In this document: piece by piece, positions 59,101-61,075 of the stretch
Numbering within the stretch: position 1 is the stretch's first letter
Layout of the letters: each line of letters begins with the position of its first letter
From: Escherichia coli
Lineage (GTDB): Bacteria; Pseudomonadota; Gammaproteobacteria; Enterobacterales; Enterobacteriaceae
NCBI RefSeq assembly: GCF_045037415.1
Contig: NZ_CP173438.1
DNA: 64,000 nt
Strand: one strand, 5' to 3'
Program-made: the position numbers

Positions 59101-61075
59101 ACCGACTGCCGCTACAACCTGACATTCCGTCAGGCAGGTAAAAAAGAATAAAAATAAGAATTATTATTGCTGTGCGCACGAAGATGTTTAAACTGCGGGC
59201 TGTAATTCATTGTCCGGGTTTTCTGCATGGAACTTCTTGTACTTGTCTGGCGGCAGTATCGCTGGCCATTTATCAGTGTGATGGCGCTAAGCCTCGCCAG
59301 TGCGGCATTAGGCATTGGCTTAATTGCTTTTATCAATCAGCGCCTTATCGAAACGGCGGATACCAGTCTGCTGGTATTGCCGGAGTTTCTGGGGTTATTG
59401 CTGCTGTTGATGGCAGTCACTCTCGGATCGCAACTGGCGCTCACCACTTTGGGGCATCACTTCGTTTACCGACTGCGTAGTGAATTTATCAAGCGGATTC
59501 TGGATACCCATGTCGAGCGCATTGAACAACTTGGTAGCGCCTCGTTGCTGGCGGGGTTAACCAGCGATGTGCGCAATATCACCATTGCTTTTGTGCGTCT
59601 GCCGGAACTGGTGCAGGGGATCATTCTCACTATCGGTTCAGCGGCGTATTTGTGGATGCTGTCGGGCAAAATGTTGCTGGTAACGGCTATCTGGATGGCA
59701 GTCACCATCTGGGGTGGTTTTATACTGGTGGCGCGGGTGTACAAACATATGGCGACCCTGCGTGAAACCGAAGATAAGCTGTACACGGATTTTCAAACCG
59801 TACTCGAAGGGCGCAAAGAGCTGACTCTGAACCGTGAACGCGCCGAGTATGTGTTTAACAACCTCTACATTCCTGATGCGCAAGAGTATCGCCATCATAT
59901 TATCCGCGCAGACACCTTCCATCTTAGTGCCGTGAACTGGTCAAACATCATGATGCTGGGCGCAATCGGCCTGGTGTTCTGGATGGCGAACAGTCTCGGT
60001 TGGGCTGATACCAACGTTGCCGCGACCTATTCGTTGACGTTGTTATTCCTGCGTACGCCGCTGCTTTCGGCGGTTGGCGCGTTGCCGACGCTACTGACGG
60101 CGCAGGTGGCGTTTAATAAGCTGAACAAATTCGCGCTCGCGCCTTTCAAAGCAGAGTTTCCGCGCCCGCAGGCGTTTCCCAACTGGCAAACGCTGGAGCT
60201 GCGTAACGTGACGTTTAGCTATCAGGATAACGCGTTTTCCGTTGGTCCAATTAATCTCACCATTAAACGTGGCGAGCTGCTGTTTCTGATTGGTGGCAAC
60301 GGTAGTGGAAAATCGACGCTGGCGATGTTGCTGACGGGCTTGTACCAGCCACAAAATGGCGAAATCTTGCTGGATGGCAAACCTGTCAGCGGCGAACAAC
60401 CGGAAGATTATCGAAAACTGTTTTCGGCAGTGTTTACCGATGTCTGGCTGTTTGATCAACTGCTGGGGCCGGAGGGGCAACCCGCTAACCCGCAACTGGT
60501 TGAGAAGTGGCTGGCGCAGCTGAAAATGGCTCATAAGCTTGAGTTAAGCAACGGGCGTATTGTTAACCTGAAGTTATCAAAAGGGCAGAAAAAACGCGTG
60601 GCGCTGTTGCTGGCGCTGGCAGAAGAACGCGATATTATCCTGCTGGATGAATGGGCGGCGGATCAGGATCCACACTTCCGTCGTGAGTTTTATCAGGTGC
60701 TGCTGCCGCTGATGCAGGAGATGGGTAAAACTATTTTCGCCATCAGTCATGATGATCATTACTTTATCCACGCCGACCGCCTGCTGGAAATGCGCAACGG
60801 GCAACTTAGCGAGCTGACAGGCGAAGAGCGCGATGCTGCTTCGCGTGATGCCGTTGCCCGGACAGCATAATATTACGACGCTGACCTGGCGGACTGCTGC
60901 CGCCAGGTCAATATTCTAAAAATACCTTCGTTTCTAATAACCCTATAATTAATCAACGAAATTATAATGTTTCTAAAATTAGAATATAATTTATAAACAT
61001 TATTTAAATGTTGTTACTTAAGTGTTACCGTTGATGCCGCGCAAATCTCACCTGCAATAAAGCGACTAAAAGTAA

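What the first reader, a model, noticed from the sequence alone, without database searches (positions are those of the whole stretch)
61013..61027. ArcA-box-like direct repeat upstream of mqo
GTTACTTAAGTGTTA matches the GTTA-N7-GTTA architecture of ArcA-P sites, in the AT-rich leader about 60 bp before the mqo ATG. This fits the idea that mqo is repressed under low oxygen.
Basis: partly seen in the sequence, partly recalled or inferred. Interest (0 to 1): 0.25.

Follow-up and report, generated by a model that had tools for sequence, protein, structure and literature searches.

The report
Known ArcA repressor site at mqo

Summary
The window is E. coli chromosome (ada-alkB-yojI-mqo-eco). GTTACTTAAGTGTTA sits exactly at 61013-61027, 60 nt before the mqo ATG.

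**Chance.** The bare GTTA-N7-GTTA pattern is not beyond chance (3 found, 1.1 expected). The full site is. A matrix built from 113 published ArcA boxes, leaving this one out, scores it 20.6 bits. That is second-best in the window, with 0.01 such sites expected.

**Already published.**
- Park et al. 2013 list ttgttacttaagtgttac (window 61011-61028, 20.5 bits) under ArcA ChIP-seq peaks in both replicates.
- They report a three-repeat site at -39 to -8 from the mapped start site.
- They report 31.8-fold mqo derepression in an arcA mutant grown anaerobically, and lower anaerobic sigma-70 occupancy.

**Mechanism.** ArcA-P most likely occludes the promoter.

**Correction.** With the start site at window 61039, the site lies over the core promoter (-26 to -12), not in the transcribed leader.

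**Caveats.** I found no footprint or site mutagenesis. A second, predicted promoter lies just downstream.

**Conservation.** The box is kept in Escherichia and most Citrobacter. The Enterobacter clade lacks one 11-bp repeat unit.

Verdict: confirmed, supported, already known, low interest.

The parts
61013..61027 (+). Its reverse complement is the ArcA motif listed by Federowicz et al. 2014 at K-12 (U00096.2) 2304837-2304851.
   Evidence: The coordinate mapping was checked against K-12.
61011..61028 (+). 18-bp ArcA box TTGTTACTTAAGTGTTAC, made of two direct repeats 11 bp apart. It lies at -28 to -11 from the mapped start site.
   Evidence: Park 2013 Table S3 gives 20.5 bits at K-12 2304850 (-). 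My leave-one-out matrix gives 20.6 bits, rank 2 in the window.
61000..61031 (+). Full three-repeat ArcA site TTATTTAAATGTTGTTACTTAAGTGTTACCGT. The repeats are 61000-61009 (weak), 61011-61020 (strong) and 61022-61031 (medium). It spans -39 to -8.
   Evidence: Park Table S4 gives 2.7, 11.4 and 5.7 bits, and Table S6 gives -39 to -8. My own 10-bp repeat matrix gives about 2.0 (one base out of register, at 61001), 11.9 and 5.1 bits.
61039..61039 (+). mqo transcription start site (G), equal to K-12 U00096.2 position 2304825. It gives a 49-nt 5' UTR.
   Evidence: Kim et al. 2012 supplementary start-site table, 10 reads, upstream sequence identical to the window.
61003..61031 (+). Inferred weak sigma-70 promoter for the mapped start: TTTAAA (61003-08), 17-bp spacer, TACCGT (61026-31). 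The ArcA repeats cover it completely.
   Evidence: Inferred from the sequence and the start site. The consensus scan did not call it.
61031..61058 (+). Alternative predicted promoter TTGATG (61031-36), 16-bp spacer, TGCAAT (61053-58). It starts 3 bp after the ArcA box ends.
   Evidence: Shimada et al. 2014 list TTGATG-16-TGCAAT for mqo from RpoD holoenzyme genomic SELEX. I located it. No start site supports it.
61039..61087 (+). mqo 5' UTR (49 nt). mqo is listed among FnrS small-RNA targets described as either CopraRNA-predicted or experimentally demonstrated; which applies to mqo is not stated.
   Evidence: Pairing was not tested here.
61088..62734 (+). mqo coding sequence (548 aa, malate:quinone oxidoreductase), the regulated gene.
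   Evidence: ORF. Annotated as mqo in E. coli genomes.

Best explanation
This is the known operator for phosphorylated ArcA, the response regulator of the ArcB/ArcA redox two-component system, at the E. coli mqo promoter. When oxygen is limiting, ArcB phosphorylates ArcA. ArcA-P then binds head-to-tail to the 11-bp-spaced TGTTA repeats at 61011-61031, with a weak third repeat at 61000-61009. The bound stretch spans -39 to -8 of the promoter that starts transcription at 61039. It therefore covers the -35 and -10 regions and keeps sigma-70 RNA polymerase off the promoter. mqo, which feeds electrons from malate into the quinone pool, is thereby shut off anaerobically along with the rest of the aerobic TCA and respiratory genes. 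Shown in published data looked up here: ArcA occupancy in vivo, arcA-dependent repression, the drop in sigma-70 occupancy, and the start site. Inferred: that these particular bases are the contacts, and that the mechanism is steric occlusion.
For: 1. Sequence. The site has two TGTTAC repeats 11 bp apart. It scores 20.6 bits with a leave-one-out matrix, against 0.01 expected per window.
2. In vivo binding. Park 2013 Table S1 lists mqo among regions bound in both ChIP-seq replicates. Peak positions 2304831 and 2304821 map to window 61033 and 61043, with 5.3- and 5.8-fold enrichment. Federowicz 2014 lists ArcA ChIP-chip regions 2304730-2305072 (fermentative) and 2304509-2304868 (nitrate). Both cover the site and both are scored 'Repression', with the same 15-mer as the motif.
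3. Regulation. mqo is up 31.8-fold in the arcA mutant grown anaerobically (P = 7e-8). That is the fifth row of the part of Table S5 shown, after sdh-suc, cyo, acs and aldA. Anaerobic sigma-70 occupancy is reduced. Park cites van der Rest et al. 2000 for an earlier ArcA effect.
4. Position. The site spans -39 to -8 from the Kim 2012 start site. Other directly repressed operons show the same placement: lpdA -38 to -6, cyoA -38 to -7, sthA -36 to -5.
5. Conservation. The window is identical to K-12 from 60931 to 61192. The 40-bp core 61000-61039 is at least 99% identical (in effect identical at this length) in 5121 of 5421 E. coli genomes, whereas only 1126 are at least 99% identical over the whole spacer. 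The box is kept or nearly kept in other Escherichia species and most Citrobacter, and it exceeds local composition there (P = 0.001-0.02).
Against: I found no base-resolution proof. Park's Table S6 leaves 'previous ArcA-P DNA binding' blank for mqo. No paper in the searchable library combines mqo, ArcA and a footprint or EMSA. The start site rests on 10 reads in one data set, and its promoter hexamers are weak (TTTAAA and TACCGT). A different promoter has been predicted just downstream. ChIP enrichment is moderate, at 5-6 fold. Part of the anaerobic drop in mqo mRNA could be post-transcriptional through FnrS. H-NS is also reported in this spacer. The strong box is absent in the Enterobacter clade.
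Confidence: 0.92

Rival explanations
1. ArcA-P binds here, but the promoter that matters is the predicted TTGATG-16-TGCAAT (61031-61058). The box would then sit immediately upstream of the -35 element and abut it, at roughly -55 to -38. Repression would work by blocking sigma region 4 or alpha-CTD contacts, not by covering the -10 element.
For: Shimada 2014 assign this promoter to mqo from RpoD holoenzyme SELEX. Its hexamers are closer to consensus than TTTAAA and TACCGT. The motif CACCTGCAAT/CACCTGTAAT is kept even in Enterobacter, Lelliottia and related genera.
Against: The assignment is a sequence prediction inside a low-resolution SELEX peak. The only mapped start site is 61039, which lies upstream of that -10 element. 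I found no start site near 61065; the Cappable-seq supplement search was empty.
Confidence: 0.12
2. ArcA occupies the site, but most of the anaerobic shut-off of mqo is indirect. It would come from the ArcA/FNR-activated small RNA FnrS acting on the 5' UTR, or from H-NS silencing of the AT-rich spacer. The repeat would then not be the main causal element.
For: mqo is listed among FnrS targets (predicted or demonstrated), and fnrS is ArcA- and FNR-activated. H-NS is flagged in the mqo-yojI spacer. No mutagenesis of the site was found.
Against: Sigma-70 occupancy at the promoter itself falls anaerobically, which points to transcriptional control. The ChIP peak centres lie within 20 bp of the box. 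The site overlaps the promoter in the same way as at other directly repressed operons. A 31.8-fold effect is large for a small RNA alone.
Confidence: 0.05
3. The repeat is a chance match in AT-rich intergenic DNA, or it is only promoter sequence, and has no regulator-binding role.
For: The bare GTTA-N7-GTTA pattern is not enriched in the window. The spacer is 34% G+C.
Against: The score is 20.6 bits, reached by 6 of 5000 surrogates with the spacer's own composition. Two independent ChIP studies place ArcA on it. Expression depends on arcA.
Confidence: 0.02
4. The tandem GTTAC repeats are used mainly by a different OmpR/PhoB-family response regulator that also binds 10-11-bp-spaced direct repeats.
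For: Only the general family architecture supports this (my own background knowledge). Nothing found here points to another regulator.
Against: The site is one of the best matches to the ArcA matrix specifically. ArcA ChIP signal and arcA-dependent expression are documented.
Confidence: 0.02

Closest known systems
The mqo ArcA box of E. coli K-12 MG1655 (Park et al. 2013, PLoS Genet 9:e1003839, Tables S1, S3, S4, S6; Federowicz et al. 2014, PLoS Genet 10:e1004264, Tables S1, S2, S5)
   Same: It is the same sequence. The window is identical to K-12 from 60931 to 61192. The 18-mer, the three-repeat site and the 15-mer all map base for base onto the published coordinates.
   Different: Nothing differs at the site. 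The window comes from a non-K-12 E. coli strain with 5 substitutions further upstream, at 60864-60930.
ArcA operators that overlap the core promoter of other directly repressed aerobic-metabolism operons (lpdA -38 to -6, cyoABCDE -38 to -7, sthA -36 to -5, glcC -40 to -9; Park 2013 Table S6)
   Same: They share the 11-bp-spaced TGTTA direct repeats, the same position over the -35 and -10 regions, the same direction of regulation, and the same anaerobic loss of sigma-70 occupancy.
   Different: lpdA and glcC have a prior ArcA-P DNA-binding study cited in Table S6. The mqo site has only ChIP and matrix evidence.
PhoB box and other OmpR/PhoB-family tandem-repeat operators
   Same: They use head-to-tail direct repeats about one helical turn apart, bound by a winged-helix dimer. 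Park et al. aligned ArcA repeat elements on the PhoB-DNA structure.
   Different: The half-site sequence and the regulator differ. PhoB boxes usually replace the -35 element and activate, whereas this site represses.

Membership tests
ArcA box (ArcA-P binding site) | Two direct repeats of (T)GTTA with 11-bp centre-to-centre spacing | tested here: met
   GTTA occurs at 61013-16 and 61024-27. Park 2013 defines the architecture this way.
ArcA box (ArcA-P binding site) | Score with the ArcA box matrix above the published cut-offs (9-10 bits; the average box is about 15 bits) | tested here: met
   The score is 20.6 bits with a matrix from 113 published boxes, leaving out this site and rcsD. That is higher than 99% of the training boxes. 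The published value is 20.5 bits.
ArcA box (ArcA-P binding site) | Occupied by ArcA in vivo under anaerobic conditions | tested here: met
   This was checked by looking up published data, not by a new experiment. Both ChIP-seq replicates are positive. ChIP-chip is positive under fermentative and nitrate conditions.
ArcA box (ArcA-P binding site) | Direct binding of purified ArcA-P at base resolution (footprint or EMSA), or loss of regulation when the site is mutated | not testable with these tools
   No such study was found. Park Table S6 leaves 'previous ArcA-P DNA binding' blank for mqo, and the literature search was empty.
Direct ArcA regulon (repressed operons) | arcA-dependent expression of the downstream gene | tested here: met
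   This was checked by look-up. mqo is up 31.8-fold in the arcA mutant versus wild type grown anaerobically, P = 7.3e-8. Federowicz scores it 'Repression'. An earlier genetic report by van der Rest et al. 2000 is cited, but that paper is not held.
Direct ArcA regulon (repressed operons) | Site placed where binding can exclude RNA polymerase | tested here: met
   The site spans -39 to -8 from the start site at window 61039. The caveat is that there is a single start-site data set and a predicted alternative promoter.
Direct ArcA regulon (repressed operons) | Conservation of the site in related ArcA-containing species | tested here: inconclusive
   The site is kept in Escherichia (20.6 and 18.2 bits) and most Citrobacter (16-17 bits at the same place). 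A different strong box is present in one Lelliottia and one Erwinia. Only 9.5-12 bits, not above composition, are found in Enterobacter, Leclercia and Pseudenterobacter.

The most novel reading that the evidence does not exclude
The strong promoter-proximal repeat (61011-61021) is exactly one 11-bp unit. It is present in Escherichia and Citrobacter and missing in the Enterobacter, Lelliottia and Leclercia clade. A one-helical-turn insertion or duplication (or its loss) would create (or destroy) a canonical two-repeat ArcA box. It would also switch which of two TTTAAA hexamers, themselves 11 bp apart, lies 17 bp from the TACCGT -10-like element. That would be a compact example of a response-regulator operator gained or lost by a change in repeat-unit number, giving lineage-specific tightness of ArcA control over mqo. 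I could not determine the direction of the event, and no expression data for the other genera were examined.
Probability: 0.25. Interest if true: 0.3.

Novelty: already known. Interest (0 to 1): 0.06.

Why it matters
The site adds nothing new for E. coli biology. It is already listed in two genome-wide ArcA studies, and mqo is an accepted direct ArcA target. Its value here is as a positive control: a reader working from sequence alone picked out a true operator, and a matrix scan of the window recovers exactly the two ChIP-verified ArcA boxes (mqo and rcsD) as its two best hits. What remains open is modest. Base-resolution proof at this promoter is missing. It is unclear which of two candidate promoters is used. 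It is also unclear why the Enterobacter clade lacks the strong repeat.

Tried and rejected
- **Bare pattern.** GTTA-N7-GTTA alone gave 3 matches against 1.1 expected, so it is not evidence by itself.
- **Promoter and terminator scan.** The consensus scan of 60700-61300 found no plus-strand promoter and no terminator. It cannot call either candidate mqo promoter because both have weak or atypical hexamers.
- **van der Rest et al. 2000.** The original arcA-mqo genetics paper is not held in the library. I cite it only through Park's reference list.
- **Independent start-site check.** The Cappable-seq supplements of Ettwiller et al. 2016 gave no hit for positions around either candidate start. The stored files may be incomplete, so this says nothing either way.
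- **Footprint or EMSA search.** I searched for any footprint or EMSA on the mqo promoter and found none.
- **Within-species footprinting.** E. coli genomes are too similar for it to be informative (all 29 listed full-length hits are at least 97.7% identical over the spacer). I therefore used the single genome-collection scan for other genera.
- **Federowicz file 12.** It is captioned 'Fnr motifs' but shows the same mqo row as the ArcA motif table. I did not rely on it.
- **Chance-match and other-regulator readings.** Both were considered and rejected on the ChIP and expression data.

Full report
**What is there**

The window is E. coli chromosome. The segment around the finding carries ORFs matching ada, alkB, yojI, mqo and eco. 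A 301-bp piece spanning the finding matches 5421 of 5426 complete E. coli genomes, where it is annotated yojI and mqo.

Window 61013-61027 reads GTTACTTAAGTGTTA, with GTTA at 61013 and again at 61024. The window runs opposite to K-12 numbering. I checked the mapping directly. The 18-mer TTGTTACTTAAGTGTTAC starts at NC_000913.3 position 2306831. Its fourth base is therefore 2306828, which is 2304850 in the older U00096.2 numbering. The window is identical to K-12 from 60931 to 61192, and the 5 differences all lie at 60864-60930.

**Is it more than chance?**

The architecture alone is not. GTTA-N7-GTTA occurs 3 times in the window against 1.12 expected, and 13 of 100 shuffles do as well.

The whole sequence is.
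- It is the only site in the window within two mismatches of the classical 15-bp ArcA consensus.
- I built a matrix from 113 of the ArcA boxes in Park et al. 2013, Table S3, leaving out the two that lie in this window.
- The 18-mer 61011-61028 scores 20.6 bits. That is higher than 99% of the training boxes and second of all positions on both strands.
- The only better hit (21.0 bits, 54564-54581) is the published rcsD ArcA box.
- Markov surrogates of the window give 0.01 such sites on average. Surrogates with the composition of the AT-rich spacer alone reach the score 6 times in 5000.

**What is already published for this exact sequence**

Park et al. 2013 (PLoS Genet 9:e1003839) define the ArcA box as an 18-bp motif of two direct repeats with 11-bp centre-to-centre spacing. 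They found it in 158 of 176 bound regions. Their supplementary tables give the following for mqo.

| Table | Content |
|---|---|
| S1 | mqo is among regions bound in both ChIP-seq replicates. Positions 2304831 and 2304821 (window 61033 and 61043), enrichment 5.3 and 5.8. Best box at 2304850, minus strand, 20.5 bits. |
| S3 | The box is ttgttacttaagtgttac. |
| S4 | Three repeats of 2.7, 11.4 and 5.7 bits in TTATTTAAATGTTGTTACTTAAGTGTTACCGT, which is window 61000-61031. |
| S5 | mqo is up 31.8-fold in the arcA mutant grown anaerobically (P = 7.3e-8). |
| S6 | mqo is one of 85 directly regulated operons. Anaerobic sigma-70 occupancy is reduced. The site lies at -39 to -8 from the start site of Kim et al. 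2012. An earlier ArcA effect is credited to van der Rest et al. 2000. |

My own 10-bp repeat matrix roughly reproduces the Table S4 scores (about 2.0 one base out of register, 11.9 and 5.1 bits).

Federowicz et al. 2014 (PLoS Genet 10:e1004264) independently report ArcA ChIP-chip regions 2304730-2305072 (fermentative) and 2304509-2304868 (nitrate respiration). Both are assigned to mqo and scored 'Repression'. Their ArcA motif table gives TAACACTTAAGTAAC at 2304837-2304851.

**Where it sits relative to transcription**

Kim et al. 2012 list one mqo start site at 2304825 (10 reads, 49-nt 5' UTR). Its upstream sequence is identical to the window and ends at window 61039. The positions that follow are:
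- 18-bp box: -28 to -11
- three-repeat site: -39 to -8

The only hexamers that fit this start are weak: TTTAAA (61003-08), 17 bp, TACCGT (61026-31). This is my inference, and the consensus scan did not call them. The ArcA repeats cover both hexamers.

Shimada et al. 2014 instead predict TTGATG-16-TGCAAT for mqo (window 61031-61058) from sigma-70 holoenzyme SELEX, and they flag H-NS in the spacer. No start site supports that promoter. A search of a Cappable-seq supplement returned nothing for either candidate. If it were the active promoter, the ArcA site would abut its -35 element, and repression would still be expected.

**Mechanism**

The best-supported account is promoter occlusion. Under oxygen limitation, ArcA-P binds the tandem repeats head to tail and excludes sigma-70 RNA polymerase. 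This shuts off a quinone-reducing TCA enzyme along with sdh, cyo, lpdA and the rest of the aerobic set.

The placement matches other directly repressed operons in the same table: lpdA -38 to -6, cyoA -38 to -7, sthA -36 to -5.

- Shown in published data: occupancy in vivo, arcA dependence, sigma-70 loss and the start site.
- Inferred: the identity of the contacted bases and steric exclusion. I found no footprint, EMSA or site mutagenesis for this promoter.

A second layer may add to the effect. mqo is listed among targets (predicted or demonstrated) of FnrS, a small RNA that is itself activated by FNR and ArcA.

**Conservation**

Within E. coli, the 40-bp core 61000-61039 is at least 99% identical (in effect identical at this length) in 5121 of 5421 genomes. 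Only 1126 are at least 99% identical over the whole 217-bp spacer. The one variant I sampled changes 61010, one base outside the box.

Across genera I scanned mqo upstream regions. The P column is the fraction of composition-matched surrogates of each 200-bp upstream region that reach the observed score.

| Taxon | Best box | P |
|---|---|---|
| E. whittamii, Escherichia sp. E1V33 | intact, 20.6 bits | E. coli reference 0.001 (these two were not run separately) |
| E. albertii | one change, 18.2 bits | 0.004 |
| Most Citrobacter | TTTTTACTTAAGTGTTAC or similar at the same place, 16-17 bits | 0.01-0.02 |
| One Lelliottia | 21.5 bits | 0.001 |
| One Erwinia | 17.4 bits | 0.003 |
| Enterobacter, Leclercia, Pseudenterobacter | 9.5-12 bits | 0.09-0.3 |
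| Pseudomonas, Burkholderia | nothing | not significant (0.3-0.75) |

Pairwise alignments show why the Enterobacter clade scores low. It lacks exactly one 11-bp unit, the strong repeat 61011-61021. So the strong box is a feature of the Escherichia and Citrobacter lineage and is not universal among enterics.

**Verdict**

The feature is already known in detail from two genome-wide ArcA studies, so interest is low. The only mildly new item is the one-repeat indel between enteric lineages, which I could not polarise.

Noticed in passing
window 61011-61021, compared with L016, L020, L022, L023, L024 and L034 at about 940-960: Exactly one 11-bp ArcA repeat unit is present in Escherichia and Citrobacter and absent in Enterobacter, Lelliottia and Leclercia. 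In the shorter form, the upstream TTTAAAC (aligned to E. coli TATAAAC, 60992-60998) would lie 17 bp from TACCGT. The direction of the event is unknown.
   Followed up: partly
window 60964-60977 and 60990-61003: Inverted repeat ATAATGTTTCTAAA / TTTATAAACATTAT (13 of 14 complementary, 12-nt gap) lies just upstream of the ArcA site. Only 2 of 300 composition-matched surrogates reach it. The left arm is not conserved in Citrobacter. It could be another regulator's site or an accident of AT-rich repeats.
   Followed up: partly
window 60882-60910: A perfect 11-bp G+C-rich hairpin (TGACCTGGCGG, 7-nt loop, CCGCCAGGTCA) lies 12 nt after the yojI stop codon. It has no T-run, so the terminator scan missed it. 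K-12 has T at 60903, which would turn one G-C pair into G-U. It is probably the yojI terminator or a stabilising 3' stem.
   Followed up: no
window 54564-54581 (+): ATGTTAATTATTTGTGAA is the best ArcA-matrix hit in the window at 21.0 bits. It is the published rcsD / micF-ompC ArcA box at K-12 2311279, bound in both ChIP studies. Weaker hits nearby are 54339-54356 and 54819-54836.
   Followed up: partly
window 61031-61058: Shimada et al. 2014 predict a second mqo promoter (TTGATG-16-TGCAAT) and report H-NS in the spacer. The CACCTGCAAT/CACCTGTAAT motif is conserved even in the Enterobacter clade. No mapped start site supports this promoter.
   Followed up: partly
window 61039-61087 (mqo 5' UTR): mqo is listed among targets of FnrS, a small RNA activated by ArcA and FNR, in a set described as either CopraRNA-predicted or experimentally demonstrated; which applies to mqo is not stated. 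This would make a feed-forward loop with the ArcA operator. Pairing was not examined.
   Followed up: no
window 14752-14769 (+): The third-best ArcA-matrix hit (TTGTAATCAATACGTAAA, 15.3 bits) lies inside the glpA coding sequence. It is not in the ArcA ChIP tables I read (Park Tables S1 and S3). Its score is about the best expected by chance for a window this size (mean maximum 14.8 bits).
   Followed up: partly
Federowicz et al. 2014, supplementary file 12 (Table S6): The file captioned 'Fnr motifs' holds the same mqo, proL and rcsD rows as the ArcA motif table. The published file appears to duplicate Table S5.
   Followed up: no
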